DNA of 64,000 nt from a bacterium (GTDB lineage Bacteria > Bacillota_I > Bacilli_A > RFN20 > CAG-826), in the NCBI GenBank assembly GCA_963616935.1, contig CAVEMS010000002.1, positions 64,396 through 128,395 of the forward strand, read 5' to 3'. Every line of letters starts with the position of its first letter. The stretch's first letter is position 1. Of the stretch, positions 12,874 through 58,584 are shown in pieces. A program made the translations under genes and the position numbers. Under the pieces are notes generated by a model. That model was given only the letters and a program-made list of their open reading frames with translations, ran no database searches and was not told where the DNA came from.

Positions 12874-14083
12874 TTGCTGTCTCCTTTTCCCTGCTTAAAA
12901 CGCCTATCCCATGGTAGCCGTCTTCCAAATTGCCGCGATATTCGCCAGCAATCAAAATCAAGCCCAAAACGTTCACGGCTGATGGATCTCTCGCTCCCAT
13001 AACGCTTGGGACGTATTTGATGAACTCTAGGTCCGGCATGTATTTCTTTAGCAGCGTGACCAAGCCATTTAACTTGCTTCCGCCACCAATCAGAATGACC
13101 GGGAAAGCCTTAGTATCGGCATCCGCACCGCTTATATACTTATCCACCATCGTGGTGATTGCGCTCTTAACGTCTTTCGTGTAAGAAGCGAAGAAAGCGT
13201 CAATCGCTTCATTGACCTTCGCTTGATTCACGCTCTTTGAGTCGAATTTGACGCCTGAGGCGACCAATGGAGCCTTATAGAGCCTTTCGCGGGCGCTATA
13301 GCCGTATTTGCGTTTGATTTCCTCCGCTTCGCTAGGCATGATGCCGAGTTTCTCGGAAAGCGATTCGGTTAGTTTTTTCGACCCCGTCGGTATCAGATAA
13401 GTGGAAAATAAGCTGGTATCGCCGACGAAACTGACGCTCGTCATATCTTCGCCGATGTCGAGCAAGAAATAATTATTCGGATAGCGTTTTTCGGAAGCGA
13501 TAAGCTGCGATGCGCAATAAGAGGAAACCTCGCTTCTCTTGACGCGATATCCCGCCTCTTCAGCGCTTTGCCTATATTCCTCGAAATAACCTTTCGAAAT
13601 CGCGTGTATCTTCGCTTGGATCATCAAAGAAGATCCGCTTTCGCCAAGCGGCGGATTCGAATACGATTTCGCGCCGTCGACTATGAAGCAATCTGGGACG
13701 ATGTCCACCACCGCCAAATTACTCGGAATCACTTGTTTCTGAACAAGCGACATAACGTTATTCATGTCGATTTTGTCGACAGTAGAATTGATTAGCATCG
13801 TCGTTCCGTCTTTTTGATAGACGGTAAGTCCAGCCGGAGGAACGACCAAAGAAATATCGTCCGTGTCGATTTTTAAGCGGAGCCCCTCATCGCTAAGTTT
13901 CGCAAACGAGGAAATCGTTTTGGCAACAAGCGCCTTGTCGACTATCCTTCCGCAAGACGCCGATAAGGCGGGAAGCTCTTTTTCCTCATAGTAAAGAAGG
14001 CACGGTTTGCCATTGACCACGGAACCGACGCCGAACTTGGCATGCGAGGAGGTTATTTCTAATACTGCAACGTTATTAATCAT
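12866..14083 (-). CDS. ftsA: cell division protein FtsA (actin-like ATPase)
   Basis: Actin/HSP70-fold motifs (N-terminal LEITSSHAKFGVG; ILIGGGSKLNGL). It overlaps the ftsZ start by 8 nt. The preferred start is MINNVAV at 14083; the ORF track starts at 14113. Confidence 0.85.
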   Translation of the reverse strand: MINNVAVLEITSSHAKFGVGSVVNGKPCLLYYEEKELPALSASCGRIVDKALVAKTISSFAKLSDEGLRLKIDTDDISLVVPPAGLTVYQKDGTTMLINSTVDKIDMNNVMSLVQKQVIPSNLAVVDIVPDCFIVDGAKSYSNPPLGESGSSLMIQAKIHAISKGYFEEYRQSAEEAGYRVKRSEVSSYCASQLIASEKRYPNNYFLLDIGEDMTSVSFVGDTSLFSTYLIPTGSKKLTESLSEKLGIMPSEAEEIKRKYGYSARERLYKAPLVASGVKFDSKSVNQAKVNEAIDAFFASYTKDVKSAITTMVDKYISGADADTKAFPVILIGGGSKLNGLVTLLKKYMPDLEFIKYVPSVMGARDPSAVNVLGLILIAGEYRGNLEDGYHGIGVLSREKETANG

Positions 14084-14116
14084 GGTTTGGCCTTTGAAAG
14101 AATGATATAGCATAAT

Positions 14117-14132
14117 ACTTGCGATAGCAAGT
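14117..14132. promoter_or_regulatory. perfect palindrome ACTTGC-gata-GCAAGT about 35-50 nt upstream of the ftsA start
   Basis: 6-bp inverted repeat with a 4-nt spacer, read directly. A second inverted repeat, AATTAGTAG-N23-CTACTAATT (14148-14187), lies nearby. Confidence 0.35.
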
Positions 14133-14225
14133 AGACATTATTAGAAAATTAGTAGTTTTTGATATGTCTATAAACAATCTACTAATTAACTACTATTTAC
14201 TAGTTTTAATCGCTATTTCCGATAC

Positions 14226-14250
14226 AAAAAAAGCCCTCGAATGAGGGCCA
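14226..14250 (-). terminator. intrinsic terminator inside the division cluster, between the small membrane ORF and ftsA
   Basis: On the minus strand, GGCCCTCattcGAGGGCTTTTTTTGTATCGG: a 7-bp GC-rich stem followed by T7. Confidence 0.6.
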
Positions 14251-14268
14251 TGAAAGAGAGGCTAAGTT

Positions 14269-14520
14269 TTAAATAGCCATTGTGTTATGTGTTACGTAAG
14301 TGAGTTCGCCTTGGTTGAATCCGCTCGATCTATCCTCCTTCTTCTCTTCTTTTTTATTGCTTGCTTCCTCTTGAGCCTTAGCTTCGGCAATCGTATAGGT
14401 TATGCCGACTGGAATGGCCGCCAAAGAGAGAAAGAAAATGCCGAAAAGGAAGATCCCGAAGAAACCCCTGGCTCGGTAATAGGCTCTGCCATGTCCGGTT
14501 TTCTCTAATTTATTCTTCAT
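14269..14520 (-). CDS. small bitopic membrane protein in the FtsL position of the division cluster (FtsL-like; function unproven)
   Basis: 83 aa: a short basic N-terminus, one TM helix (IFLFGIFFLSLAAIPVGITYTI) and a charged C-terminal tail. It lies between rsmH and ftsA. Confidence 0.35.
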   Translation of the reverse strand: MKNKLEKTGHGRAYYRARGFFGIFLFGIFFLSLAAIPVGITYTIAEAKAQEEASNKKEEKKEDRSSGFNQGELTYVTHNTMAI

Positions 14521-14532
14521 TTCTCTTTCCTC

Positions 14533-15465
14533 CTATTTCTTTTCTATCGCGCGAAGCTTCGCGCTATGTGAACGGTTGTTCTCCGCTAATTCCGCCTCGC
14601 TTGGCAAGACGGCTTTCTTCGTTAAGTCGATGAAGGGCGCCTCTTCGATCTCGCTAGGCAATAGATTCGGGCCGTTTCTTGTCCCTTCCACTCTCGTAAG
14701 CGAATGGAACGAATTCTTCACGAGCCTATCTTCTAAGCTATGGAAGGTGATGATCGCGATCCTGCCGCCTTTCTTTAAGACGCCAGGGAAATCGTCGAGC
14801 AACTTCTTCAGATTATCGAGCTCGCCGTTCGTTTCGATTCTTAGCGCTTGGAAGATCTGCTTAGCCGGATGTCCTTTTTTTGACAACGACTTCATCGGTT
14901 TGGCTTTTTTGATAATCTCGACCAATTCGCCAGTTGTTTCAATCGGCTTTTTCGCCCTTTCCTTGACGATTAAGGAAGCGACTCGGCCAGCATCCCTATC
15001 CTCGCCATAGAGGCGGAAGATGTTCGCTAATTCTTCGAATGAGTAGGTGTTGACGATGGTTTTCGCGCTTTTGGGCTGACTTTGATCCATCCTCATATCG
15101 AGAACGGCGTCTTTTTTGTAGCTAAATCCTCTCTCGCCTTCGTCGAATTGCGGAGAGCTGACGCCCAAATCGGCCGTTATCCCATCCACCTTTTCGACTC
15201 CGATTTCCTTGAGTTTGGAAGCGAAGTCGGCGAAGTTCGAATGAATGATGGTGAAGTTATCCCCAATCGCTGAGAGTCTTTCCTTCGACTCTTCTATCGC
15301 CTCTTGATCCAAATCGAAGCAATATAGATGTCCTTTGGGGGCTCTTTTAAGGATGGCGCCCGACGTTCCTCCCCTTCCGAGTGTGAGGTCGACATACACC
15401 CCATCTTCCTTGATGGAGAGCATCTCGATCGTTTCGGACAAGAGAACGCTATAATGGGCGCTCAT
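14533..15465 (-). CDS. rsmH: 16S rRNA (cytosine1402-N4)-methyltransferase RsmH (MraW)
   Basis: 310 aa with the SAM-binding YVDLTLGRGGTSGAIL motif and RsmH-wide similarity. It overlaps the mraZ stop. Confidence 0.9.
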   Translation of the reverse strand: MSAHYSVLLSETIEMLSIKEDGVYVDLTLGRGGTSGAILKRAPKGHLYCFDLDQEAIEESKERLSAIGDNFTIIHSNFADFASKLKEIGVEKVDGITADLGVSSPQFDEGERGFSYKKDAVLDMRMDQSQPKSAKTIVNTYSFEELANIFRLYGEDRDAGRVASLIVKERAKKPIETTGELVEIIKKAKPMKSLSKKGHPAKQIFQALRIETNGELDNLKKLLDDFPGVLKKGGRIAIITFHSLEDRLVKNSFHSLTRVEGTRNGPNLLPSEIEEAPFIDLTKKAVLPSEAELAENNRSHSAKLRAIEKK

Positions 15466-15935
15466 TCCTTATCTCCCGTTTTAGACAAGACATCGGCGAT
15501 CTCCTCGAACCGCGCTTCTTCCTTGGCGAGATATTCTTCATAGGTCTTCTTGTTGAATACCTCGATATGGTCTAAAGCGCCGATGATGACCACTTCTTGC
15601 TCAATGCCATAACGGTTTTTGATTTCCGTTGGCAAAGTGATGCGATCATGGCCATCGACATCGAGAGGGACGACGCTGGATGCGGCAAGGCGGGTGAAGC
15701 TTCTGGCGTTGCTATCGAAGTACGATAGCGATTCCAGTTTGGCTAAGAATTTCTGGAAGGAGTCCTCGGAATATAAAGACACTGCCCCTTCGAATCCTCG
15801 AAGGAGATAGAGACGAGACGGCATTTCCCCCATTAATTTGGAAGGAAGCAAAAGCCGGTTCTTCGAATCTAGGTTTCTTATGTAGGTTCCGAAATACTTT
15901 CCCACTTTTTCCCACCTTTGATAATAATCTATCAT
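15462..15935 (-). CDS. mraZ: transcriptional regulator MraZ
   Basis: 157 aa with two MraZ/SpoVT-AbrB-like repeats (DSKNRLLLPSKL ... DGHDRITLPTEI). Confidence 0.8.
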   Translation of the reverse strand: MIDYYQRWEKVGKYFGTYIRNLDSKNRLLLPSKLMGEMPSRLYLLRGFEGAVSLYSEDSFQKFLAKLESLSYFDSNARSFTRLAASSVVPLDVDGHDRITLPTEIKNRYGIEQEVVIIGALDHIEVFNKKTYEEYLAKEEARFEEIADVLSKTGDKE

Positions 15936-27678: not shown

Positions 27679-27853
27679 TTCCCTCGCTTATTGCAATCAT
27701 GCCAGCATCGATTTGTGTGCTGGCTTTTTTTGAACGCTTCAATCAAAAAATTGCAAAAAATGTGTTTTCGCACACTTTTTGAAACTTTTTTCTATAAAAT
27801 TTTGATTTTTTGCATTTTTAAGTTACAATTTATGTGCGAAAGGATTGATCGCT

Positions 27854-29167
27854 ATGGAAATAAAGAGAGACTTTTATCTCAAAAAATTAATCCGCAGCAT
27901 GCATAATGGGATGATTAAGGTGATAACCGGGATAAGGCGCTGCGGAAAGTCATATTTATTAGACCCATTATTCAAAGACTACCTTCTGTCAACCGGCGTT
28001 TCCAAGGAGAGGATAATCAAAATCGATCTTTCCTCTTCCTCCAATTTCGAACTCACCAATCCAATCCTCCTTCGGGACTACATCATAGACAAGCTCAACA
28101 AAGAAGATCAGTTTTACCTATTCGTCGACGAAATACAGCTATGTGAAAGCATTGATAATCCCGCATTCAACGGATACAAAACGTCCGACGGTCATGTTCC
28201 ACAAATAAATTTCTATCAAATTCTCAACGGGCTTCTGTCAGAATACAAAAACGTTGATGTCTATGTCACCGGTAGCAATTCGCACCTCCTTTCTTCCGAT
28301 ATCCTCACGGATTTCCGAGGAAGAGGATGGCAGATCGATCTATCCCCCTTCTCCTTTTCGGAGTATAAAGAGGCGTTTCCTTCGAAAGACGCCAGGCTTG
28401 CATTCGAAGAATATTTGACTTTCGGCGGGATGCCTGGAGCCATACCCTATGGCAATTATGACGACAAAATCGAATATCTAACGAATCTTTTCGAGCTCAC
28501 TTATTTCAAAGATATCGTGGAACATGGAAGCATCAAAGAAAATAGGCCCATAAAAGAGCTGGCAATGGTGCTTTCCTCAAATGAAGGCTCGCTCATCTCG
28601 GTAAAGAGAATATCAGAGCTTTTCAAAGAAAAAGTCGATAAAAGCTTCAGTCGCCAAACAATTGAGAAATATATCGATGTCCTCAAGGACTCATTCTTGA
28701 TAAGTGAGGTAGAACGCTTCGACGTCAAAGGCAACAAAATCATCGGAAGCAGCAAAAAATACTATTTCGCCGACTGTGGGTTAAGGAATGCGCTTCTTAA
28801 CTTCAAGCAAAGCGATCGCGGTCGTTTGATGGAATCAGTCATATATAGAGACTTAAAGAGGCGCGGATACGCCGTCAATGTCGGAGTCGTCCCGGTGATA
28901 GAAACCGCGCAAGACGGCTCGAGATCGCGAAGGCAATTCGAAATAGATTTCATAGCCAGCAAAGGAAATAAGAAAATCTACATTCAATCGGCTTATAGGA
29001 TTTATGACGACGAGAAACTGAAGCAGGAATCGAATTCTTTTCTAAAAATCGACGATTCATATAGGAAAATCATAATTGAGGGCGATCTCTATACGCCCTA
29101 TACCGACCAAAACGGAATAGAGCACGTCGGCGTCATCGATTTCCTCTTAAACGAAGAACGCGACTAA
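27854..29167 (+). CDS. AAA+ ATPase of the COG1373/DUF4143 family, paralog 2
   Basis: Walker A GIRRCGKSYLL, Walker B LFVDEIQ, C-terminal block FEIDFIASKG. The preferred start is ATG 27854 with AGGA 9 nt upstream; the ORF track uses TTG 27845. A candidate promoter is TTGATT(27812-27817)-16-TACAAT(27834-27839). Confidence 0.75.
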   Translation: MEIKRDFYLKKLIRSMHNGMIKVITGIRRCGKSYLLDPLFKDYLLSTGVSKERIIKIDLSSSSNFELTNPILLRDYIIDKLNKEDQFYLFVDEIQLCESIDNPAFNGYKTSDGHVPQINFYQILNGLLSEYKNVDVYVTGSNSHLLSSDILTDFRGRGWQIDLSPFSFSEYKEAFPSKDARLAFEEYLTFGGMPGAIPYGNYDDKIEYLTNLFELTYFKDIVEHGSIKENRPIKELAMVLSSNEGSLISVKRISELFKEKVDKSFSRQTIEKYIDVLKDSFLISEVERFDVKGNKIIGSSKKYYFADCGLRNALLNFKQSDRGRLMESVIYRDLKRRGYAVNVGVVPVIETAQDGSRSRRQFEIDFIASKGNKKIYIQSAYRIYDDEKLKQESNSFLKIDDSYRKIIIEGDLYTPYTDQNGIEHVGVIDFLLNEERD

Positions 29168-42989: not shown

Positions 42990-44324
42990 ATGCGAATAGT
43001 CCGGACAATCGAGAAATCGTTAATCAAATCGCTCGAGGAAAGCAACAATATATTGATTGAAGGCCTGCCTTTCATTGACAAAAAATTTTTGATTGAATCA
43101 CTCCTTTCAGAAGGTAAATTCGGATGTTATAAATGCGACTTAAACAATTATTCGCATATCGATAAACTGACTTCCTATTTAAGCGAAAACAGCCAAAGAA
43201 AAGGCGATAAAAATTCGAAGAAAAACGTCTTAATTCTGCACATCGAGAAAAACATCGGTTTATTGAAAACTTTACTAAATCAAAATAATGCTGATTTTCG
43301 CTACATTTTTGTTAGCGATGTAATACTTGATGGTTTCCAAAACTCCTCTAATTTAGACGTATTCATGATCAAACCCCTTAACTTTTTAGAATTTCTTTAC
43401 TCATGCGGCCTAAAGAAAGACGATTTGGAAAAATACAAGAATCGGGCGTTTGAAAGTATCAACGAAGAGAATGAGTTGACTTCAAAACTATATTCATTAT
43501 TGGATGTCTATTCACTTATCGGCGGCATTCCTAAGTGCGTGGACGTCTATTTATCTTCCGGAAACCTAAACAAAGCTCTGAAAGCGAGAGACGAAGCCTA
43601 CGCCGAATTCAACGAATCGTTCCTTTCGCTATGCGCCGCTTCTTTGATGTCATCCGACGCCAAAGATATAAACGCGATCCGAAACGCCAAAAAAGCCTTC
43701 GAATCGATTCCTCCATATCTCTCTAGCGATTCATACGATTATAAGTTCTCTTTCATATCTCCTTCGTCAAGGAAGGATTCATATATCTCATCTTTCAATT
43801 GGATAAGAAATAACGGATACGTTTGTTTATCCACTCGTGCGAACCCTTTTGTTCCAGCCACGAATGCCGAAGCAAACTCCTTTAAGGCCTATCTCCCTGA
43901 TATCGGCCTAGAAATGTCCGCTTTGAAGGTTAATGACATCAATCCTCATAACGGTCGTCTGATCGATCTTTTGATTGCCGATTCGCTATTCAAAAATGGT
44001 GCATCGCTAGAGTACATATTCGATTCAAAAACTCATGAGAAAGTCGATTGCGTCGCCTTGCGCGATGGGCATTATGAGATATATAAGACGTCTGGCGACA
44101 AGAAATGCGCCTCGCTATATTCGAAAACGGCCTCCGTTCTAAACGCTTCCAATGTCTATAACGTTATGTATGACACAAAGGGAAAGAATCAAAAAGAGCC
44201 ATTTAAGAACGTCGATGTCCTCGACGTCATGTTATCCATATGCGAATCCGAAAATAATGCGCATCAAAAAGAAAAGGAAGATATCCAAGCGATAGAAATC
44301 GATCCAGATTCCTTTTTGTCCTAA
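42990..44324 (+). CDS. degenerate COG1373/DUF4143-like protein (paralog 3) with eroded Walker A/B motifs, predicted to be ATPase-inactive
   Basis: Same length (444 aa) and C-terminal DUF4143-like block (EYIFDSKTHEKVDCVALRDGHYEIYKTSG) as paralogs 1 and 2. The Walker A position reads GLPFIDKKF and the Walker B position LILHIEKN. The local GC is about 37%, against about 47% for the window. AAGAGG RBS. Confidence 0.5.
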   Translation: MRIVRTIEKSLIKSLEESNNILIEGLPFIDKKFLIESLLSEGKFGCYKCDLNNYSHIDKLTSYLSENSQRKGDKNSKKNVLILHIEKNIGLLKTLLNQNNADFRYIFVSDVILDGFQNSSNLDVFMIKPLNFLEFLYSCGLKKDDLEKYKNRAFESINEENELTSKLYSLLDVYSLIGGIPKCVDVYLSSGNLNKALKARDEAYAEFNESFLSLCAASLMSSDAKDINAIRNAKKAFESIPPYLSSDSYDYKFSFISPSSRKDSYISSFNWIRNNGYVCLSTRANPFVPATNAEANSFKAYLPDIGLEMSALKVNDINPHNGRLIDLLIADSLFKNGASLEYIFDSKTHEKVDCVALRDGHYEIYKTSGDKKCASLYSKTASVLNASNVYNVMYDTKGKNQKEPFKNVDVLDVMLSICESENNAHQKEKEDIQAIEIDPDSFLS

Positions 44325-48916: not shown

Positions 48917-49149
48917 GATTACTACATTATACTTTTGCTAGGTGCACGAACATACGATTAAAAAACGCATTCCGTTCAACGACGTGACTAAAAGCCAAAT
49001 TTCGAAAAGAAAGACGCCTACGTTTCGTTATGTCGAAAAGAGCGGCTAGTAGATCCTTTTTTCGTTCTGCCCTCGTTATCCCCATTGTAGTTAGCAAAAT
49101 CAAAAAAGCGGCCCAAGGGACCGCTTCAAGAGATAAAAGATATAAGGAC

Positions 49150-49908
49150 TTATTTGCCAGCCGGAATCGGAGAGATCTTATTGTCCGCTTCGATGCCGCT
49201 AAGCTTATCCATATCGAAGGAAGGGATGTCGTTGCTATGTCTAAAGGAATTGCGGAAATCCGCTTTAAGCTCTTCGATCTTTAGCATCGCATCGCCATAA
49301 CGGCCGTATTTCGCGGATTCTATCGCATGGCGAGGAACGCCGAAGAGAATAAATAGCACGATCGATAAGGCAGCGGCTGCCATACCAAACCAATAGAGCA
49401 TGCCGAAGACGCCACCGCTAAGGACATCGGCGAGTTTCACCTCATATCCGTGGTTCCATATGCCAACCCCTAGGCAAGCGGCCCCGCCAATCAAAAGGAG
49501 CAAGAAGAGAATCGTGATCAAAACCGGCAAATGGCGCTTCTTCTTGGCTTTCAAGGCTTTGCAATATAGCAAATAGTTGTCATAGGTCATACGATTATAG
49601 ATATGCTCGGCCTGACGCCACTTCTGGAAGTCGTTTGCGAAGCGATTACGGCCATAGGTCATACGGACGTAGTTATCGACCGGCTCGTCGTTATGATGGA
49701 GGGCGAGCCCTAAGAAAGCCTCATCGGCCTCTTGCGGATAATAGAAATGAGCCATATCCGTCGTGCCCTCGATCTTGCCGTCCATCGAGCGTTGGAAATT
49801 GATTTCCTGCATCGTTATCGGGCGATAGCCGAAAGTCTGGAAAACGCGATGGAATTTGTTTTCCGATCCCTTTGGGATGTTTATCGTCTTGTAGTCGTAC
49901 TGATCCAT
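49150..49908 (-). CDS. hypothetical membrane protein (two TM helices), last gene of the hypB operon
   Basis: Two hydrophobic helices (LPVLITILFLLLLIGGAA ... GVFGMLYWFGMAAAALSIVLFILFGV). The preferred start is MDQYDYK at 49908 with an AAGGAGAGAGG RBS; the ORF track starts at 50028. Confidence 0.5.
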   Translation of the reverse strand: MDQYDYKTINIPKGSENKFHRVFQTFGYRPITMQEINFQRSMDGKIEGTTDMAHFYYPQEADEAFLGLALHHNDEPVDNYVRMTYGRNRFANDFQKWRQAEHIYNRMTYDNYLLYCKALKAKKKRHLPVLITILFLLLLIGGAACLGVGIWNHGYEVKLADVLSGGVFGMLYWFGMAAAALSIVLFILFGVPRHAIESAKYGRYGDAMLKIEELKADFRNSFRHSNDIPSFDMDKLSGIEADNKISPIPAGK

Positions 49909-50059
49909 ACCTCTCTCCTTATGTGGTTGTAATAGATTAACACAGATATTGGTGTTTTTGGGTCTCGAAGTGGGATGGTCGCCCCATCCGTATAGCGGCA
50001 TATCGAAGTCCGGGTCTAATATTGCCATATCGATGCCTCAATTGCCTCTAGCGCATGAG

Positions 50060-50407
50060 CTAGACGACCTCGATCTCCTTGATGTTTTTCTCATCGCCCT
50101 TTATGAGATAGGTGTGCTCACTATGGCAATGAGGACAGATCTTCGCGTATTTGACCGTTTCGTAGGTCTTTCCGCAATCCTCGCAATAGGTGACCGCTTT
50201 AACGACGTCGATCTTTAGAATCGTGTCTTTTAGCGGCTCCTCTTCCTTATGGACGGCCCACTTCCAGCAATCCTCAAGATAAGAGGGAATCAAAGTCGAG
50301 ACCTCGCCCACTTCGAGAGTGACACTATTGACGTGCTTGACGTCGTTCTCTTTGGCGATTTCCTTTAGCTCGTCGATGATATGGAAGATGATGCCTAATT
50401 CATGCAT
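50060..50407 (-). CDS. hypA: hydrogenase/urease nickel-insertion metallochaperone HypA
   Basis: 115 aa with N-terminal MHE (Ni site) and two CxxC pairs (CEDC ... CPHC) for the structural Zn. Confidence 0.8.
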   Translation of the reverse strand: MHELGIIFHIIDELKEIAKENDVKHVNSVTLEVGEVSTLIPSYLEDCWKWAVHKEEEPLKDTILKIDVVKAVTYCEDCGKTYETVKYAKICPHCHSEHTYLIKGDEKNIKEIEVV

Positions 50408-50409
50408 GG

Positions 50410-53319
50410 TTACTTGCCTTTGGCGGCTTTCTTCGCCTTCTTTTGGGCTTTCTTATATTCCTTATGCTTCTTTTCGGAGGCTTTCTCCTCGGCCGTGTGC
50501 TTGCCGAATTTTATCTTGACGCCGCGCTTGATGGCGTACGGCAAAATCAATTTGAACTTATCCTCGGCCTTAATCATCTTGGTGGCCTCTGGATGGTCGC
50601 GCTTCAAGGAGATGGCGTCGAACATGCACTTGGTCGTGCAAATACCGCATCCGATGCACTTATTGGGATCGACGATCGATGCGCCGCAAGAAAGGCATCT
50701 CTTGGTCTCGATCTTGACTTGCTCCTCGGTTAGCGTCATATGGGCATCCTTAAAGGAATGATGCGAATCGATCGAAGGATCGAAGCCCGCCTCTTGTCTA
50801 CCGATAGTGTCGTATTCCTTGATGGAGATATCGTTTTTATCGAGCATCTTGAAGTCGCGACGATTACGCCCGATTGTTAGTGAGGCACCGACATGGACAT
50901 AACGGTGAAGCGATTCGGCTGCGCACTTGCCTTGTTCGATCGCGTCGATCGCGAAACGTGGGCCAGTATAGACGTCGCCTCCGACGAAGATGTCGTTTTC
51001 GGCGGTTTGGTAGGTCAAAGGATCGGCAACCGGATAGGCTCCATGATATTCGACTTTGCTGCCTTTTAGCAAATCGCCCCAAACGATCGCTTGCCCGATG
51101 GCGAAGATGACCTTATCGGCCTTGACTTCGATTGTCTCGTTCTCGTCGTATTTGGGACTAAACCTTCCATTCTCGTCTTTCGTGGATAGGCATTTCTTGA
51201 AGACGACGGAAACGACATTGCCGTTATCGTCTTTCTTGACTTCTTTCGGTCCCCAGGAGTTATTGATTTCGATTCCTTCTTCGAGGGTTTCGGAGATCTC
51301 CTCTTTGCTAGCGGGCATCGTCGCTCTATCCTCAAGCGAGAACATCGACACTTTCGATGCGCCGAAACGGATGGCGGTTCTGGCCGCGTCGACAGCGACG
51401 TTTCCACCACCTACGACCACCACTTCCCCATCGATCTTCTGATCGTGGTTATCGGTGGCGCCATGAAGGAATTCAACGGCCGTGGTGACGCCTTTCGCGT
51501 CTTGCCCATCGATTCCAGGGAGCCTCGCCCCTTGGCAACCGATGGCGATATAGAAAGCGGCGTACCCTTCTTTCCTTAGGTCGTCTAGCGTTATATCTTT
51601 TCCGACTTCGACGCCGGTTTTGATCGTGACGCCAAGTTCCTTAATGACCTCGATTTCCGCTTCGATGACGTCTTTCTCGAGTTTATAGGAAGGGATGCCG
51701 TACATTAGCATTCCGCCGCACTTAGGATTCTTCTCGAATATCGTCGGCTTATAGCCCTTGGTGGCAAGATAATAAGCGCATGACAAACCGGCTGGGCCGG
51801 CGCCGATGATCGCGATCTTGTCTTTCCATTCATCAAGCCTATTGCTCGCGATCACCACTTCTGGGATATAGCGGGTCTCCGCCTTAAGATCCTGCTCGGC
51901 GATGAACTTCTTGACGGCGTCGATAGAGACGGCGCGATCGATATCGCCCCTCGTGCAGGCGTCCTCGCAGCGTTTGTTGCAGATTCGGCCACAAATCGCC
52001 GGGAGAGGATTGTCTTTCTTAATGAGGGCGAGGGCTTCCTTGTATTTGCCTTGCGAGGCGAGTTTAAGATAGCCTTGGACGGCAACGTGAGCGGGACAGG
52101 CGGTCTTGCAAGGCGCAGTGCCCGTGTCATAGCAGTTTATACGGTTGTTATCGCGGTAATTCTCATCGTATTTGTCTTCTCCCCAGCTCATGTTATCTGG
52201 GAGCTCATGCTTCGGATAGACGACGTTAGAGCCGTCTTTCTTACAAAGCTTCTGTCCGAGTTTGACGGCGCCGGCTGGGCAATATTCGACGCACTTGCCG
52301 CAAGCGACGCATTTGCTAACGTCGACATGGGCCGTATAGGCGCTACGCGACATATTGGGGGTGTTGAATAATTGCGACGTTCTCAAGGCGTTACAGATGT
52401 TGACGTTGCAATTGCAGATGCCGAATATCTTGTTTTCGCCATCGATATTGGTGATTTGGTGGACGAAGCCGTTATCCTCGGCGACCTTGAGTATCCTCAT
52501 CGCCTCTTCGTAAGTGATGTCATGGCCTTTGCCGGTCTCACGGCAATAGTCGGCGAAATCGCCAACGCCGATGCACCAGTTGTATTGATCGTCGGCGCAT
52601 CCTTCTCCAAGAGCGGCTCTCGAAGCGCGGCAAGAGCATTGCCCAACGCCGATATGGCCTTCGTATTTCTTTAGCCAGTAGGAAAGATGTTCCAAATCGA
52701 CGGACTTATTCTCCATCGATATGGCCTTTTCGACTGGGATGACGTGCATTCCGACGCCCGCTCCGCCAGGAGGGACGAGCTGGGTGATGCCCTTTAACGG
52801 GATATAGGTCATCCTCTCGAAGAAAGAGGCGACGGTAGGATGATCCTTCAAACGGGGATTGTCCATCTCCTTGCCGTCTTTGGTTATGAATCTCTCTTCC
52901 ATGTTGAAGAGCTCGGCGCTGCCAGGGACGAACAAAGGAAGAGTGTATCTCCTTTCGCCTAGCGGAGCGGTTCTTCCATTATGGTCATAATGATAGCCAT
53001 AGTCGTATTCGAGCAAGCCAATATAGGCCATCTCGTCCAAGAGCTTTTGGAATTTCTCTTTGTCCTTGGCTTTCTCCTTGTTCTTTTTGCAAAGTTCTTC
53101 GAAGGTATAGTGATGGCGGAGTTTCATCGTGAGGGCGACATCGGCCATCTCATCGGTGACGATTTCCGCAAGGCCCCAATATTCTGGGTCCTCTACTTTC
53201 ACTTTGCCGAGCTTATGTGCGGCAACATCGGTGATTTTTTTACCTAATTTCAATATTTTCTCATTAGGTTCCTTGTCGCTCATATGTGGAGGAACGACGG
53301 CTTTACTCATTTCTGGCAT
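50410..53319 (-). CDS. multidomain iron-sulfur flavoprotein: unknown Cys-rich N-terminal domain, 2x[4Fe-4S] ferredoxin, GltD/DPD-like FAD/NAD(P) oxidoreductase, C-terminal ferredoxin
   Basis: 969 aa. The motifs are CVACGKCVEYCP and CKTACPAHV, then ICGRICNKRCEDAC (Cx3Cx3Cx3C, DPD/GltD type). Next come IAIIGAGPAGLSCAYYLA (FAD), VVVVGGGNVAVDAARTA (NAD(P)) and CLSCGASIVDPNKCIGCGICTTKC. The N-terminal roughly 330 aa carry an unassigned QCSCRASRAALGEGCADDQYNWC...YCRETGKGH...GICNCNVNIC cysteine cluster. Confidence 0.7.
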   Translation of the reverse strand: MPEMSKAVVPPHMSDKEPNEKILKLGKKITDVAAHKLGKVKVEDPEYWGLAEIVTDEMADVALTMKLRHHYTFEELCKKNKEKAKDKEKFQKLLDEMAYIGLLEYDYGYHYDHNGRTAPLGERRYTLPLFVPGSAELFNMEERFITKDGKEMDNPRLKDHPTVASFFERMTYIPLKGITQLVPPGGAGVGMHVIPVEKAISMENKSVDLEHLSYWLKKYEGHIGVGQCSCRASRAALGEGCADDQYNWCIGVGDFADYCRETGKGHDITYEEAMRILKVAEDNGFVHQITNIDGENKIFGICNCNVNICNALRTSQLFNTPNMSRSAYTAHVDVSKCVACGKCVEYCPAGAVKLGQKLCKKDGSNVVYPKHELPDNMSWGEDKYDENYRDNNRINCYDTGTAPCKTACPAHVAVQGYLKLASQGKYKEALALIKKDNPLPAICGRICNKRCEDACTRGDIDRAVSIDAVKKFIAEQDLKAETRYIPEVVIASNRLDEWKDKIAIIGAGPAGLSCAYYLATKGYKPTIFEKNPKCGGMLMYGIPSYKLEKDVIEAEIEVIKELGVTIKTGVEVGKDITLDDLRKEGYAAFYIAIGCQGARLPGIDGQDAKGVTTAVEFLHGATDNHDQKIDGEVVVVGGGNVAVDAARTAIRFGASKVSMFSLEDRATMPASKEEISETLEEGIEINNSWGPKEVKKDDNGNVVSVVFKKCLSTKDENGRFSPKYDENETIEVKADKVIFAIGQAIVWGDLLKGSKVEYHGAYPVADPLTYQTAENDIFVGGDVYTGPRFAIDAIEQGKCAAESLHRYVHVGASLTIGRNRRDFKMLDKNDISIKEYDTIGRQEAGFDPSIDSHHSFKDAHMTLTEEQVKIETKRCLSCGASIVDPNKCIGCGICTTKCMFDAISLKRDHPEATKMIKAEDKFKLILPYAIKRGVKIKFGKHTAEEKASEKKHKEYKKAQKKAKKAAKGK

Positions 53320-53333
53320 GGTTATCTCCTTTG

Positions 53334-54005
53334 CTATTCCTTGATTTTCTTTATTTCGTTATCGATCCACGAGGCGAATTCATCGATCCCCTCGTCCTTC
53401 TTGGCCGATATCGGGATTATCTTGGCGTCTTTGTTCCGATATAGGATGTTCTTCTTAGCTCTATCGAGCGAGAAGTCGAAGTAAGGCGCGACATCCATCT
53501 TGTTTATTAGGAAGAGGGAGCACACTTGATACATGAGAGGGTATTTAAGCGGTTTGTCATCCCCTTCTGGCACGCTTAGGATATTGACGTTAACGTGGGA
53601 GCCGGTATCGAACTCAGCTGGGCAAACGAGATTGCCGACGTTTTCGATGATGATGAGATCGAGATCCTTAGTTGAGAGAGATTCGATGCCTTGCCTTGTC
53701 ATATCGGCGGTCAGATGGCACATGCCGCCGGTATGGAGTTGGATGGCTTCGACGTTGCCTAGACCTGAGATGGTCTTCGCATCGATTTCGCTATCGATGT
53801 CGGCTTCCATCACGGCGATTTTGTATTTGTCCTTGAGTTTCGCAAGCGTCGCCATGAGGGTCGTGGTCTTCCCGCTTCCCGGCGAGGACATAAGATTGAT
53901 AAGCAACGTCTTTTTCTCTTTTAGTTCTTTACGTAGCTTGTTTGCTTCATCTTCGTTGGATTTGAAGATGTTTTGCTTAATTTCGATGATTCTTACTTGA
54001 TCCAT
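53334..54005 (-). CDS. hypB: nickel-insertion GTPase HypB
   Basis: 223 aa with P-loop SSPGSGKTT and the HypB hallmark ENVGNLVCPAEFD. Confidence 0.85.
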   Translation of the reverse strand: MDQVRIIEIKQNIFKSNEDEANKLRKELKEKKTLLINLMSSPGSGKTTTLMATLAKLKDKYKIAVMEADIDSEIDAKTISGLGNVEAIQLHTGGMCHLTADMTRQGIESLSTKDLDLIIIENVGNLVCPAEFDTGSHVNVNILSVPEGDDKPLKYPLMYQVCSLFLINKMDVAPYFDFSLDRAKKNILYRNKDAKIIPISAKKDEGIDEFASWIDNEIKKIKE

Positions 54006-54299
54006 GCATTCGCCTTTCGTCGCATAAACGTATTCTACTAATTTTTAATAAAAATTAAAGAAATATACGAGCTTTCGCCATTTTTTCCGCATTTTCTGTC
54101 ATGAAGATCGGCATTTTTGCAACATTTTCCAACTATCTATTTTACAATAATATTATTTTGTATCTTTTGATATTGACAAAGATTACAAATAGCACTAAAT
54201 TGTTACTGCAACGATACAGAACGATTGTTGCATGTAAAAAAATAAGCCAAAGCCCATCGAAATAGCAATGATGGATAGACGGCTCAAAAAGGAGAACAT

Positions 54300-55475: not shown

Positions 55476-57026
55476 TTAATCCTGAACCCAGGTGAATGAG
55501 GAGTAGCAATTGATGACGAGATAGATTTTGCCAGCCTCGATATTTAAGTATTGCGTGTCGATCGAAGGCAACTCGCGAGGTTCGCCATTGACATAGATGG
55601 CTTGCGATATCTTCTCGCACCTCTCATCTTCGCCAGACGTCCAAGGCAAGAAAACGCTGGGGGAGGTGGAAGTATCGTGCACGGTTATTCCCTTAAAGAT
55701 TTTGCGATGCGTTTCCGTCGCCCTATTCGTATCGATTATCGTTATGTCCTCAACGTTGACGACTGCAGCGCTATTCGAGGACGTGTCGGGCATCTTTTCG
55801 TTAACTTTGGCGTAGAGGATCCTAGTGTCGGAGCCGATTGGCTGATCGACATAAGGAATCGTGCGCTCTTCATCGGTGTATAGGGTCACGACGTCGCCAT
55901 ATTCCCAAGTAATCTGCGAGCCGATTTTCGTGTTTATGGGATTTTCCCATAGATAATCCATGTAGTAGATATCGACCGACACCTCAGCGCCTAGCCCAGA
56001 ATCGACGCTTCCATCGATTTGGCTAAGACACTCGGCGGATACCTCGCTATCGAGCTCGCGGGCGAAAGTGACTTTATAGCAATAGTCGACGACTTCGTAT
56101 GCGCCAATCGGGTATTTGTAAGAATAGATGTCCCTGACTTCGAAGCCGGACAAAAGACCGTCTTTCGCATAAAAGATCGCTTTGAAGTCCATGTGTTCTA
56201 TGGCTTCGTACGAATTATCATCGCAGCCGAAGGCGATTTCGAAAGCCGTTAAGCCATCAACCTCATAAACGTCGCAAGAAGATAGGCCAACTTGGCTTAT
56301 TAACGATGGGAAGGCAGCGAGGAAATCGTCCATTTTGTCGTTATTCACGATCCACTTTGCGTATTGGGAAAAGCTTGTATCCATATCATCGATGTTCGTG
56401 AATAGATTATCGAAAAGATATGAAGCGTAGCCTTCGTCGGAAAGGTATTGGGTTTTCGAGGAATCGTCTATCTCATAATATCGATATTCGCCATCCGCAT
56501 TATCATTAGTCGAAATGATATATGCGTTGCTGGTGGTCTCTGTCCCCTCTCTGTCCATAGAATCTTCAACGGACTTGCTATAGTAACGGCCATTCTCGCG
56601 ATCTAACGTCGCTTTTTGGGTTATCACGTCGCTAGTTATTATCGTGCCAGACTTGTAAGACAAGATTTTTGTCTCAGTGACGAAAGAGAGGTTTCCTTCA
56701 TAGGCGAGAAATTCATTAAGCGCCGTTTGGACTTCCTTGTAGTTGACGTCTTTGGCGTTATCGACGTATCCGCAGACTTTGCAAGTCGGGTATCCGTCCT
56801 TCGTCTCAAAATCGTGCGCCTCGTAGTCATAACGCGGCTCCTCAAGGCCACAATCGCAGATGTGATAATGACCATAGGCATCGTACTTATATTCTTCGGA
56901 GGCATGGTGAACGTGCGTCGATGGGTCGACGCTTTGCTTCCTTTCCTTCGCCATCAACAGGCAAGAGCTAAGAGACGCCGCGCTTAAGGCGAAGAAAGGG
57001 ACCAACAGTATCTTCTTGTTCTTCAT
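55476..57026 (-). CDS. surface lipoprotein with a His/Cys-rich N-terminal module, paralog A
   Basis: 516 aa. Signal peptide plus lipobox LSSC, followed by HVHHASEEYKYDAYGHYHICDCG...AHDFETKDGYPTCKVCGY. The rest is D/E/Y-rich. Confidence 0.6.
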   Translation of the reverse strand: MKNKKILLVPFFALSAASLSSCLLMAKERKQSVDPSTHVHHASEEYKYDAYGHYHICDCGLEEPRYDYEAHDFETKDGYPTCKVCGYVDNAKDVNYKEVQTALNEFLAYEGNLSFVTETKILSYKSGTIITSDVITQKATLDRENGRYYSKSVEDSMDREGTETTSNAYIISTNDNADGEYRYYEIDDSSKTQYLSDEGYASYLFDNLFTNIDDMDTSFSQYAKWIVNNDKMDDFLAAFPSLISQVGLSSCDVYEVDGLTAFEIAFGCDDNSYEAIEHMDFKAIFYAKDGLLSGFEVRDIYSYKYPIGAYEVVDYCYKVTFARELDSEVSAECLSQIDGSVDSGLGAEVSVDIYYMDYLWENPINTKIGSQITWEYGDVVTLYTDEERTIPYVDQPIGSDTRILYAKVNEKMPDTSSNSAAVVNVEDITIIDTNRATETHRKIFKGITVHDTSTSPSVFLPWTSGEDERCEKISQAIYVNGEPRELPSIDTQYLNIEAGKIYLVINCYSSFTWVQD

Positions 57027-57042
57027 CGTTATACCTCCACCA

Positions 57043-58584
57043 TCAATATATGAACGTGGTCTCTGACCAGTATAGGAAATAGATCTTGCCCGCTTCTAGC
57101 GTGAATTGGCCGACGATTTCCTTTCCATCCAAAGTGAGTTTCGTTCCACAGTATTTGGTATTTCCGTGATAAGTGAAATTCGGACTATAGGCGCAAGGAG
57201 CGGAGTATGAGTTCACACTCAGAACAAGTTTTTTTCGTTTTAAGAAATTAAAATCCATGAGCAGGCATTCTCGATCGAGGAGCTCCCATACGAGAGCCTG
57301 ATCGGATGCCGGTTCGAGCGGCTTGACGTATAGCGCGCTATAGCTCGTGTCTAGAACCTGATCGGTATAAGGAATCGTGCAATCCTTGTCGATATAAAGA
57401 TCGGCGTATGTATGATAGTAATCGCTTGACCAATCGTGTTTTTCGCCAATAGTAGTGTAGATGGTGGACAATTCGTATTCGCCTAAAAACACAGGAATGG
57501 AGAACGAATACGCTTGGCTGGATGCCTCATATTCGCTTTCATCCGGTTTATTTGACTCATAAAGAGCCTGATCGAATTCTTTTTGGAAAGTGATATTTGT
57601 CGTCTCGTATTCGATTTCATCATGCCCGCTTGGATTAAGCTGATGGCGTTCCCAATAGAAATTCAACGCCGAGACGAAATCGTCCTTGACGCTTAACGCA
57701 AGATAGAATGAGTACGACTCAATCTCATTGTCGTAAACTTCTGCGAATGCGATTTCTATCGCGTAAGTGACGGTCCCATCGTCAGAGAGGGCGATACTCG
57801 GAATAAGCTCAGCGTTCTCAATGTCAACAATGAAACCAAAATCATCCTTCAAGTCGTCGAAATTAGTTGCATTTACCATGGCCTCAGGGAAGTCGAAGAG
57901 CTCGGAATCGCTGAAGAAATCGCTAAGCTCTAGACGCGCCACGCCATTATCTGCTTCGCAAACCGTTTTGTCGGTGTCGCTATTTTTTTGGAAATATTTA
58001 TAACCGTTAGCATCATCGCCAGAAACATAGGAAAGGAGACTTTCGGAACTCGAATAGGTCTCGTTTTTATAGTCATAGACAGCTTTGGTATCCGTCTCCT
58101 GCAAGCAATATAGGTTATTGGTTGCACCGTATGTGAGGTCGCATTCACGTGTCGAGAGCCTTTTCGGAAGTTCGTTCTCATATTTGTTTATCGTATACAC
58201 CATTTTGCAGGACAAATCGCCATCGTAGGAGACGTAATTCTTTATGCCGGAGACGAAAATCTTGGCCAATCTATCGTACTCAACGATCGGTAAAGTGTAG
58301 GAATAGCCGCACACTTTGCACGTTCTGACTCCATCTTTTTCCTCATATTCGTGGAGCGCATAGTTGAATCTCACATTCTCATCGCACTTATCGCATGAGT
58401 GATAGTGGCCGTTCTCATCGTATTTGTAACTTGTGGCCGCGACGTGGGCATGCCCAATGGCATCACCGCCATTGCCATTATCGACACGATTGCCCGAACA
58501 TGCCGCAAGCGGCATGAGACATAACGTCATCGATGCCAGCAGTAAGTTTTTTCTTTTTGACATCAAAAAAAACCTCTCTTTCAT
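57043..58584 (-). CDS. surface lipoprotein with a His/Cys-rich N-terminal module, paralog B
   Basis: 513 aa. Lipobox LAAC, followed by HAHVAATSYKYDENGHYHSCDKCDEN...LHEYEEKDGVRTCKVCGY. It is tandem with paralog A, 16 nt apart. Confidence 0.6.
   Translation of the reverse strand: MKERFFLMSKRKNLLLASMTLCLMPLAACSGNRVDNGNGGDAIGHAHVAATSYKYDENGHYHSCDKCDENVRFNYALHEYEEKDGVRTCKVCGYSYTLPIVEYDRLAKIFVSGIKNYVSYDGDLSCKMVYTINKYENELPKRLSTRECDLTYGATNNLYCLQETDTKAVYDYKNETYSSSESLLSYVSGDDANGYKYFQKNSDTDKTVCEADNGVARLELSDFFSDSELFDFPEAMVNATNFDDLKDDFGFIVDIENAELIPSIALSDDGTVTYAIEIAFAEVYDNEIESYSFYLALSVKDDFVSALNFYWERHQLNPSGHDEIEYETTNITFQKEFDQALYESNKPDESEYEASSQAYSFSIPVFLGEYELSTIYTTIGEKHDWSSDYYHTYADLYIDKDCTIPYTDQVLDTSYSALYVKPLEPASDQALVWELLDRECLLMDFNFLKRKKLVLSVNSYSAPCAYSPNFTYHGNTKYCGTKLTLDGKEIVGQFTLEAGKIYFLYWSETTFIY

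What the first reader, a model, noticed from the sequence alone, without database searches (positions are those of the whole stretch)
50060..54005. hypB, a 969-aa Fe-S flavoprotein and hypA form one operon with no hydrogenase structural genes in sight
Seen in the sequence: HypB has the ENVGNLVCPAEFD motif and a GSGKT P-loop. HypA has an MHE N-terminus and two CxxC pairs. The two bracket a single 969-aa ORF at spacings of 14 nt and 2 nt. That ORF carries 2x[4Fe-4S] motifs, a DPD/GltD-type Cx3Cx3Cx3C cluster, two dinucleotide-binding sites and a C-terminal ferredoxin domain. A small 2-TM protein follows. The protein also has a roughly 330-residue N-terminal domain with a distinctive CSC...C...C...C...CNCNVNIC cysteine array that I cannot assign to a known family. 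Established knowledge: HypA and HypB insert Ni into NiFe-hydrogenase large subunits (and urease), and normally sit with hypCDEF and hydrogenase genes. Inference: this may be the diaphorase/electron-transfer module of a hydrogenase encoded elsewhere. Alternatively the N-terminal domain is itself a nickel-dependent catalytic domain, which would make this an undescribed Ni-enzyme maturation cassette in a wall-less Firmicute.
Basis: partly seen in the sequence, partly recalled or inferred. Interest (0 to 1): 0.7.

Follow-up and report, generated by a model that had tools for sequence, protein, structure and literature searches.

The report
IsrA-type reductase with own nickel chaperones
The hypB–969-aa–hypA cassette is real and strongly conserved, but it belongs to a family already described in 2023 (relatives of the putative isoprene reductase IsrA), a suspected but still unproven new kind of nickel enzyme whose substrate in gut bacteria is unknown.

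Summary
X is a full-length homolog (49% identity over 893 residues) of IsrA, the putative isoprene reductase of Acetobacterium wieringae ISORED-2 (Kronen et al. 2023, PMC10134865). That paper already reported the unassigned N-terminal domain, its six-cysteine site with two CxC motifs, the hypA/hypB linkage (73% and 56% of 988 homologs) and the idea that the enzyme itself is the nickel target. So the cassette is not undescribed. Here hypA lies within 1.2 kb downstream of X in 62 of 71 informative loci, and no hydrogenase, urease or CODH genes occur in the window or in the flanks of 80 related loci. This argues against the "diaphorase of a distant hydrogenase" reading. X lacks IsrA's diagnostic 26-residue insert and belongs to a separate gut/rumen subclade, so its substrate is unknown. 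The six-cysteine subdomain has no solved structural relative. Nickel dependence remains inference. About a third of relatives carry an apparently unreported extended operon (double-cubane-like pair, activase, CooC-like ATPase).

The parts
54152..54179 (-). promoter-like site (TTGTCA-16-AATAAT) upstream of hypB
   Evidence: Consensus scan, 10 of 12 matches. The number of such sites in the region is no higher than in shuffled sequence, so this is weak evidence.
53334..54005 (-). hypB: nickel-binding GTPase metallochaperone, 223 aa
   Evidence: TIGR00073 at 2.6e-68, above the cutoff. P-loop GSGKT at 43, CH at 96, C128 within NLVCPAEFD, NKMD at 168. 56% identical to the HypB of the isr operon.
50410..53319 (-). 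X: 969-aa IsrA-type Fe-S flavoprotein oxidoreductase
   Evidence: 49% identity over 893 aa to IsrA (P0329), E=0. Domains.
52990..53262 (-). X residues ~20-110: winged-helix-like subdomain
52699..52809 (-). X residues 171-207: highly conserved loop (PPGGAGVGMHVIPVEKAI), not resolved in the models
   Evidence: Invariant within the gut subclade. G188, P195 and A199 are kept in at least 92% of 27 divergent relatives. pLDDT below 50.
52360..52707 (-). X residues ~205-320: six-cysteine (Cys6) subdomain, the proposed Ni/Fe-S catalytic site (C228, C230, C249, C302, C304, C309)
52240..52329 (-). X residues 331-360: first [4Fe-4S] ferredoxin motif (C337, C340, C343, C347)
   Evidence: PF00037 at residues 331-352. 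Motif position.
51883..52137 (-). X residues 395-479: DPD/GltD-type domain II for two [4Fe-4S] clusters (C443x3C447x3C451x3C455)
   Evidence: PF14691 at 3.5e-23. Motif position.
50929..51819 (-). [quoted passage not shown]
   Evidence: PF07992 at 2e-31. Best PDB relatives are the GltD-like parts of 9bov_A, 8oh5_C and NfnA 9n5u_A, then NfnI 5jca_L.
50584..50697 (-). X residues 875-912: C-terminal ferredoxin motif (C875, C878, C888, C891, C894, C898)
   Evidence: PF13187 at residues 887-912. Motif position.
50060..50407 (-). hypA: nickel metallochaperone, 115 aa
   Evidence: PF01155 at 4.6e-30. MHE N-terminus and two CxxC pairs. Below the TIGR00100 cutoff (71.9 against 88.1).
49150..50028 (-). 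292-aa ORF with two hydrophobic segments; probably co-transcribed, lineage-specific
   Evidence: No minus-strand terminator between hypA and this ORF. No Pfam family above the curated cutoff (only a 17-bit DUF2207_C match, cutoff 33) and no NCBIfam match. Found only in L001 among the 80 loci.
49105..49127 (-). intrinsic-terminator-like hairpin (10-bp stem, 6 G-C pairs, T tail) ending the transcription unit

Best explanation
The cassette is self-contained. It pairs a large multi-domain Fe-S flavoprotein of the IsrA type (the 'clade 9' relatives of the putative isoprene reductase) with its own dedicated nickel chaperones.

Proposed mechanism:
1. The HypB GTPase and HypA load nickel into the invariant six-cysteine site of the N-terminal domain of X. 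Most likely this gives a Ni-bearing Fe-S centre.
2. Electrons enter from NAD(P)H at the FAD of the GltD/NfnB-like module. They may also enter from ferredoxin through the C-terminal ferredoxin domain.
3. They pass along the chain of [4Fe-4S] clusters to the Cys6 site.
4. There an otherwise unreactive unsaturated substrate is reduced. By analogy with isoprene and butadiene this would be an unfunctionalised, probably conjugated, C=C bond.

This gut/rumen subclade is not the isoprene reductase proper, and its substrate is unknown.

Shown here: gene order, homology to IsrA, motif conservation, conserved synteny, absence of other Ni-enzyme genes nearby.
Inferred: nickel insertion into X, the electron path, the type of reaction.
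For: - X aligns end to end with IsrA (P0329), 49% identity over 893 residues, E=0. IsrA Cys180/182 and Cys254/256 fall on X C228/230 and C302/304.
- P0329 sits in the ISORED-2 MAG in the published gene order: 901-aa oxidoreductase, HypA, HypB, ferredoxin, HypA.
- Six cysteines plus R231, H287, N303 and R313 are invariant in 27 divergent relatives.
- The spacings CxCR, 74 aa, CxCx4C, 35 aa, ferredoxin motif are fixed in nearly all full-length relatives examined (74 aa; 75 in one sub-cluster).
- hypA lies within 1.2 kb downstream of X in 62 of 71 informative loci. In 51 loci with large flanks, hypA is present in 46 and hypB in 24.
- Unbiased clustering of all ORFs in the 80 loci finds no recurrent hydrogenase, urease or CODH genes. 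None are present in the window.
- HypA and HypB keep their nickel-binding motifs.
- Literature: isrA, hypA and hypB are induced together by isoprene; ISORED-2 has no [NiFe]-hydrogenase genes; 73% and 56% of 988 homologs have hypA and hypB nearby (PMC10134865). hypA and hypB rise 373- and 585-fold with isoprene in Pelotomaculum (bioRxiv 10.64898/2026.02.25.708027).
- About a third of relatives add a MinD/CooC-like ATPase to the operon. Its only family matches are generic MinD/ParA/ArsA-type, so it adds little support for metal insertion.
Against: - No member of the family has been purified. Nickel content and catalytic activity are unmeasured (PMC10134865).
- Acetobacterium homologs with the same 47-49% identity to IsrA come from strains that do not reduce isoprene (PMC10134865), so the reaction type cannot simply be transferred.
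- hypB is missing from the flanks of about half the loci, and five well-covered loci have neither hyp gene.
- Rumen butyrivibrios that carry X also have Ech [NiFe]-hydrogenase (PMC4478896), so in those genomes the hyp genes could have a second client.
- The rest of this genome is unseen.
Confidence: 0.6

Rival explanations
1. HypA/HypB mature a [NiFe]-hydrogenase (or urease) encoded elsewhere, and X is merely its NAD(P)H-linked electron-transfer (diaphorase) partner.
For: - HypA and HypB are canonical hydrogenase/urease chaperones.
- The module at X residues 400-880 resembles the GltD-like parts of multi-subunit bifurcating complexes (9bov_A, 8oh5_C, 9n5u_A).
- Butyrivibrios carrying X also have Ech hydrogenase (PMC4478896).
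- Only 64 kb of this genome is visible.
Against: - No hydrogenase subunits or hypCDEF occur in the window or among the recurrent, annotated ORF families in the flanks of the 80 loci.
- The linkage is to X itself: hypA is downstream in 62 of 71 loci.
- A. wieringae ISORED-2 has the cassette but no [NiFe]-hydrogenase structural genes (PMC10134865).
- X carries an extra, invariant Cys6 domain that a diaphorase would not need.
Confidence: 0.1
2. The Cys6 site holds only iron-sulfur: an unusual cluster, or a [4Fe-4S] cluster next to a redox-active cysteine pair as in ferredoxin:thioredoxin reductase. In that case X is a nickel-free reductase or an Nfn-like bifurcating oxidoreductase, and the hyp neighbours supply another metal or serve a second client.
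For: [quoted passage not shown]
- No Ni-site fold similarity was detected.
- HypA here is divergent. It is below the TIGR00100 cutoff and only 26-27% identical to the isr HypAs.
- Some loci lack hyp genes.
Against: - HypA keeps the MHE nickel-binding N-terminus, and HypB keeps the CH...C nickel site and the GTPase motifs.
- Co-induction of hypA/hypB with isrA is published.
- A MinD/CooC-like ATPase joins the operon in about a third of loci, although it has only generic MinD/ParA family matches.
Confidence: 0.2
3. X is a true isoprene reductase that converts isoprene to methylbutenes, as proposed for IsrA.
For: Full-length homology and the same cofactor motifs as IsrA.
Against: - X lacks the 26-residue insert (IsrA 756-782) that the authors found only in IsrA, A. 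wieringae strain Y and the Pelotomaculum homologs (PMC10134865).
- It lacks the paralogous 350-aa ferredoxin and the second hypA of the isr operon.
- Its identity to IsrA (49%) equals that of Acetobacterium homologs from strains that do not reduce isoprene (PMC10134865).
- X sits in a separate gut/rumen subclade.
Confidence: 0.05

Closest known systems
IsrA, putative isoprene reductase of Acetobacterium wieringae ISORED-2 (VUZ27132.1), and its 'clade 9' homologs (Kronen et al. 2023, PMC10134865)
   Same: - Full-length architecture: N-terminal domain without a family assignment, Cys6 site with two CxC motifs 74 residues apart, ferredoxin motif, Fer4_20, FAD/NAD(P)H module, C-terminal ferredoxin.
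- 49% identity over 893 residues.
- hypA and hypB in the same operon.
- No hydrogenase genes nearby.
   Different: - X lacks the 26-residue IsrA-specific insert, the neighbouring 350-aa paralogous ferredoxin and the second hypA.
- The gene order is hypB-X-hypA rather than isrA-hypA-hypB-fd-hypA.
- X has about 48 extra N-terminal residues and a Lys-rich C-terminal tail.
- It belongs to a gut/rumen subclade that is 65-99% identical within itself.
- Its substrate is unknown.
NfnB / glutamate synthase small subunit (GltD) / DPD domain II-III type Fe-S flavoproteins (e.g. 5jca_L, 4ylf_B, 2vdc_G, 1gt8_A; fused forms 9bov_A, 8oh5_C, 9n5u_A)
   Same: Residues about 395-810 of X share the two-[4Fe-4S] Fer4_20 domain and the nested FAD/NAD(P)H fold (E 7.5e-95 to 2.9e-52).
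   Different: - These proteins lack the N-terminal winged-helix and Cys6 domains.
- They work with partner subunits (NfnA, GltB, a pyrimidine-binding domain) that are absent here.
- None is linked to nickel chaperones.
HypA/HypB nickel delivery to [NiFe]-hydrogenase and (in Helicobacter) urease
   Same: The same two chaperones with intact Ni, Zn and GTP motifs.
   Different: The rest of the Hyp machinery (hypCDEF, endopeptidase) and the hydrogenase or urease structural genes are absent from the window and from all 80 related neighbourhoods. The apparent client is X.
Acetyl-CoA synthase A-cluster (Ni-Ni-[4Fe-4S]) and double-cubane cluster proteins (comparison raised by Kronen et al.)
   Same: A cysteine-only site with a C-x-C motif next to an Fe-S electron chain, linked to P-loop metallochaperones. 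In a third of relatives, double-cubane-like proteins and a weak ACS middle-domain-like protein are encoded in the same operon.
   Different: No fold or sequence similarity between the Cys6 subdomain and ACS or DCCP was detected. The 241-aa ACS-like protein is unrelated to X and is absent from the window.

Membership tests
IsrA-type 'clade 9' HypAB-associated oxidoreductases (Kronen et al. 2023) | Aligns over the whole ~900-aa length of IsrA, including the first ~270 residues that have no family assignment | tested here: met
   BLASTP of X against P0329 (IsrA): 49% identity, 893 columns, X 45-909 against IsrA 24-878, E=0. P0329 was verified as IsrA by its genomic context in GCA_902175055.1.
IsrA-type 'clade 9' HypAB-associated oxidoreductases (Kronen et al. 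2023) | Six-cysteine site with two CxC motifs (IsrA Cys180/182 and Cys254/256) | tested here: met
   X C228/C230 and C302/C304 align with them. Together with C249 and C309 they are invariant in 27 divergent relatives. The spacings are identical, 74 and 35 residues.
IsrA-type 'clade 9' HypAB-associated oxidoreductases (Kronen et al. 2023) | [quoted passage not shown] | tested here: met
   Fer4, Fer4_20, Pyr_redox_2 and C-terminal Fer4_9 hits. Motif positions.
IsrA-type 'clade 9' HypAB-associated oxidoreductases (Kronen et al. 2023) | hypA and/or hypB within a few genes | tested here: met
   They flank X directly in the window. hypA is downstream in 62 of 71 informative related loci.
Isoprene reductase proper (IsrA subclade I and the isr operon) | 26-residue insert at IsrA 756-782; adjacent paralogous 350-aa ferredoxin and a second hypA | tested here: not met
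   The alignment shows gaps in X opposite the insert. The window operon has no such ferredoxin or second hypA (compare L082).
Isoprene reductase proper (IsrA subclade I and the isr operon) | Reduces isoprene to methylbutene; contains nickel | not testable with these tools
   This needs enzyme purification, metal analysis and activity assays. It has not been done for IsrA itself either (PMC10134865).
NfnB/GltD-type NAD(P)H Fe-S flavoprotein | Fer4_20 domain plus an FAD/NAD(P)H pyridine-nucleotide-disulfide oxidoreductase fold | tested here: met
   PF14691 at 3.5e-23 and PF07992 at 2e-31. PDB relatives 5jca_L, 4ylf_B and 2vdc_G.
NfnB/GltD-type NAD(P)H Fe-S flavoprotein | Partner subunit (NfnA, GltB or equivalent) encoded alongside; score above the family cutoff | tested here: not met
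   No such gene is in the operon or the window. All NCBIfam equivalog scores are below cutoff, e.g. TIGR01316 288 against 472 and NF009410 457 against 516.
[NiFe]-hydrogenase maturation (Hyp) system | HypA with an MHE N-terminus and two CxxC pairs; HypB GTPase with a CH...C nickel site | tested here: met
[NiFe]-hydrogenase maturation (Hyp) system | Accompanied by hypCDEF and hydrogenase large and small subunit genes | tested here: not met
   None occur in the 64-kb window or among the recurrent ORF families in the flanks (up to 10 kb) of the 80 loci. The rest of the genome could not be examined.
YgfK (putative selenate reductase subunit, TIGR03315) | Full-length match above the cutoff, including the N-terminal region | tested here: not met
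   290.6 bits against a cutoff of 835.3. Only X 390-880 aligns with model positions 433-888.
Acetyl-CoA synthase A-cluster domain | Fold or sequence similarity of the Cys-rich domain to ACS/CdhC | tested here: inconclusive

The most novel reading that the evidence does not exclude
The gut/rumen subclade of X is a nickel-iron-sulfur enzyme that hydrogenates unactivated conjugated dienes met in the gut. The most attractive candidate substrate is conjugated linoleic acid, reduced to vaccenic acid. That would make X the long-sought reductase of biohydrogenating butyrivibrios and Roseburia. In a third of genomes, the co-encoded double-cubane-like pair and activase would supply ATP-driven low-potential electrons. 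The evidence does not exclude this:
- The subclade occurs in Butyrivibrio fibrisolvens 16/4, Pseudobutyrivibrio, Roseburia and Agathobacter.
- The family's one studied member acts on conjugated dienes.
- An A. woodii homolog lies near an oleate hydratase (PMC10134865).
No direct evidence supports it, and no paper was found that links the two.
Probability: 0.12. Interest if true: 0.85.

Novelty: new member of a known kind. Interest (0 to 1): 0.45.

Why it matters
If the family really uses nickel, it would add a new class to the short list of nickel enzymes, and one that reduces C=C bonds lacking any activating group. That chemistry is otherwise rare in biology. The subclade found here is very common and very conserved in gut and rumen Firmicutes: relatives were found in at least 558 species-representative genomes, 65-99% identical across Lachnospiraceae, Oscillospirales, Erysipelotrichales and Mollicutes-like MAGs. 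Its substrate is therefore likely to be an abundant dietary or host compound. The minimal three-gene form in this window is a compact unit (enzyme plus both chaperones) well suited to heterologous expression, which is the experiment the field still lacks.

Tried and rejected
- Tested whether the N-domain is a known family. Pfam, NCBIfam, phmmer and a profile search against PDB gave nothing for about the first 310 residues (no PDB match below profile position ~287).
- Tested whether the 241-aa 'CdhC-like' protein of the extended operon is a paralog of the X N-domain. It is not (BLASTP E 1.6). It matches only the ACS middle domain, weakly.
- Looked for IsrA's sequence in the paper's supplements. 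None is held. Cluster look-ups of divergent representatives gave no useful names. IsrA was finally obtained through a second homolog search and confirmed by its gene neighbourhood.
- Literature searches found nothing that links the family to CLA reductase or biohydrogenation, to gut functions, or to the extended HGD-D cluster.
- Considered horizontal transfer as the explanation for the high identity across taxa. Many MAG labels (Bacteroidaceae, Alistipes, Paludibacteraceae, Staphylococcaceae) look like binning or naming artefacts, so I drew no conclusion.

Full report
**What is in the sequence.** Three ORFs lie on the minus strand at the stated coordinates: hypB 53334-54005 (223 aa), a 969-aa ORF (X) 50410-53319, and hypA 50060-50407 (115 aa). 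The spacers are 14 nt, containing an AAGGAG ribosome-binding site, and 2 nt (TAA-CC-ATG), which suggests translational coupling. HypB matches TIGR00073 at 2.6e-68, above its cutoff. It has GSGKT at 43, CH at 96, NLVCPAEFD at 125 and NKMD at 168. HypA matches PF01155 at 4.6e-30 and has MHE at residue 1 and two CxxC pairs.

In X, the region from residue 331 onward is assigned. It has a ferredoxin motif (C337-C347), a DPD/GltD-type Fer4_20 domain (C443x3Cx3Cx3C), an FAD/NAD(P)H module (GAGPAG at 506, GGGNVA at 637) and a C-terminal ferredoxin motif (C875-C898). Residues 1-330 match nothing in Pfam, NCBIfam or PDB.

A promoter-like site lies at 54179-54152. A strong terminator-like hairpin at 49127-49105 follows a 292-aa ORF with two hydrophobic segments (49150-50028). 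The transcription unit is therefore probably hypB-X-hypA-ORF292. ORF292 occurs only in the near-identical genome L001 and is not part of the conserved module.

**No other nickel client nearby.** Every ORF of at least 120 aa that is not nested in a longer annotated ORF was scanned. They encode cell-division, translation, glycogen, glycoside-hydrolase and transporter functions. None is a hydrogenase, urease, CODH/ACS, hypCDEF or nickel-transporter gene.

**The family and its synteny.** The N-terminal 337 residues alone retrieve 1371 protein clusters. A scan of species-representative genomes found at least 558 genomes encoding a relative. The best 80 loci are 75-99% identical in this domain and come mostly from Lachnospiraceae, Pseudobutyrivibrio, Butyrivibrio, Oscillospirales, Erysipelotrichaceae, Anaeroplasmataceae and 'Mollicutes'/Bacilli MAGs.

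- hypA lies within 1.2 kb downstream of X in 62 of 71 loci with enough flank.
- Among 51 loci with at least 5 kb upstream and 2 kb downstream, hypA is present in 46 and hypB in 24. In 14 of these, hypB is immediately upstream.
- Five such loci have neither gene.
- An unbiased clustering of all ORFs in the 80 loci finds only eight recurrent families. The next tier is a GntR/FCD regulator (14 loci) and unrelated housekeeping genes.

The linkage is therefore to X itself, and far beyond chance.

**It is already described.** A literature search led to Kronen et al. 2023 (PMC10134865). In an isoprene-reducing Acetobacterium wieringae culture they found an isoprene-induced operon encoding a 901-aa oxidoreductase (IsrA), two HypA, one HypB and a ferredoxin. 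They reported that:

- the first ~270 residues of IsrA have no recognisable domain;
- six cysteines, including two CxC motifs (Cys180/182 and Cys254/256), form a fifth cluster site;
- the MAG has no [NiFe]-hydrogenase structural genes;
- among 988 'clade 9' homologs, 73% have hypA and 56% have hypB within five genes;
- homologs occur in Firmicutes, Spirochaetes, Tenericutes and other phyla;
- the Cys6 site may bind nickel.

No enzyme has been purified. A 2026 preprint reports 373- and 585-fold induction of hypA and hypB by isoprene in Pelotomaculum.

**Direct membership test.** I retrieved IsrA itself as P0329 (901 aa, A. wieringae). Its locus in GCA_902175055.1 has the published gene order. 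X aligns with it over 893 columns at 49% identity (E=0), and IsrA C180/C182 and C254/C256 fall on X C228/C230 and C302/C304. The spacings CxCR, 74 aa, CxCx4C, 35 aa, ferredoxin motif are fixed in nearly all full-length relatives examined. C228, C230, C249, C302, C304 and C309 are invariant in 27 relatives down to about 35% identity, together with R231, H287, N303 and R313. X is therefore a member of the family.

**It is not the isoprene reductase proper.** X lacks the 26-residue insert (IsrA 756-782) that the authors found only in IsrA, strain Y and the Pelotomaculum proteins. It also lacks the neighbouring paralogous ferredoxin and the second hypA. Its identity to IsrA equals that of Acetobacterium homologs from strains that do not reduce isoprene (PMC10134865). 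An identity matrix places X in a gut/rumen subclade that is 65-73% identical to the Anaerosacchariphilus, Pseudobutyrivibrio and Anaeroplasmataceae members. It is only 35-55% identical to the other subclades. The substrate is therefore unknown.

**Mechanism.**
- Shown: the domain order, the conserved Cys6 site, the intact Ni, Zn and GTP motifs of the chaperones, and the tight operon.
- Inferred: NAD(P)H reduces FAD in the GltD/NfnB-like module. Electrons pass through the Fer4_20 clusters and the C337 cluster to the Cys6 site, which HypB and HypA load with nickel. There an unactivated, probably conjugated, C=C bond is reduced. The C-terminal ferredoxin domain may give a second entry for ferredoxin electrons, since the closest solved relatives belong to bifurcating enzymes.

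I put 0.6 on this package. Family membership alone is about 0.95.

**Rivals.**
- The hyp genes serve a hydrogenase elsewhere (0.1). Conserved linkage without hydrogenase genes argues against it, as does the hydrogenase-free ISORED-2 genome. It cannot be excluded for this genome from 64 kb, and butyrivibrios do have Ech (PMC4478896).
- The Cys6 site is purely Fe-S or thiol-based (0.2).
- X is a true isoprene reductase (0.05).

**Extra finding in relatives.** In about 27-31 of the 80 loci, X is preceded by a conserved block:

- a MinD/CooC-like ATPase;
- two HGD-D proteins, whose best NCBIfam match is 'double-cubane-cluster-containing anaerobic reductase' at 143 bits, below the cutoff;
- an acyl-CoA-dehydratase-type activase (TIGR00241, 214 bits, above the cutoff);
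- a 241-aa protein that weakly resembles the ACS/CdhC middle domain.

hypB is often placed upstream of this block. This block is absent from the window. The terms PF06050 and BcrAD do not occur in Kronen et al., and no paper describing the block was found. It suggests an ATP-driven low-potential electron supply or an additional maturation step.

**Verdict.** The finding is a new member, from a distinct gut subclade with a minimal three-gene layout, of a known but biochemically untested family.

Noticed in passing
L078:3872-13144; L022:4479-13258 (and ~27-31 of loci L001-L080): Extended operon around X in about a third of relatives: [hypB], MinD/CooC-like ATPase, two HGD-D (double-cubane/benzoyl-CoA-reductase-like) proteins, acyl-CoA-dehydratase-type activase, a 241-aa protein weakly like the ACS/CdhC middle domain, X, hypA. 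It is absent from the window, and no paper describing it was found.
   Followed up: partly
window 11731-15935: The division/cell-wall cluster is reduced to mraZ, rsmH (mraW), ftsA and ftsZ, with no mur, pbp or ftsW genes in between. This layout is typical of Mollicutes. The nearest genome (L001, 99% identical) is labelled 'uncultured Staphylococcaceae' MAG.
   Followed up: no
window 55476-57026 and 57043-58584 (minus strand): Two tandem paralogous proteins of about 515 aa. Both have lipoprotein-type signal sequences and a shared His/Cys-rich N-terminal motif, and neither has a Pfam family.
   Followed up: no
window 10370-11692, 27845-29167, 42990-44324: Three copies of an AAA_14/DUF4143 ATPase gene scattered through the window.
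   Followed up: no
window 50060-50407 (hypA) compared with L082:8714-9070 and L082:10951-11304: The X-linked HypA is divergent. It scores below the TIGR00100 cutoff (71.9 against 88.1) and is only 26-27% identical to the two HypAs of the isr operon. HypB, by contrast, is 56% identical to the isr HypB. The chaperones seem to evolve at very different rates.
   Followed up: partly
window 50413-50532 (X residues ~930-969): A Lys-rich C-terminal tail on X. It is shared with the Pseudobutyrivibrio and Anaeroplasmataceae members and absent from IsrA. Its function is unknown.
   Followed up: no
L082:9801-10931 (isr-operon ferredoxin): Its N-terminal half is a paralog of the X/IsrA Cys-rich subdomain (28% identity over 116 aa, E 5e-10) with a denser CMCR...CMCCSCCC motif. 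The Cys-rich subdomain therefore also exists as a stand-alone module fused only to a ferredoxin.
   Followed up: partly
L002-L080 record titles: Nearly identical X genes (80-93%) sit in MAGs labelled Bacteroidaceae, Paludibacteraceae, Alistipes, Spirochaetia and Lachnospiraceae. This points either to binning or naming errors or to recent horizontal spread of the cassette.
   Followed up: no
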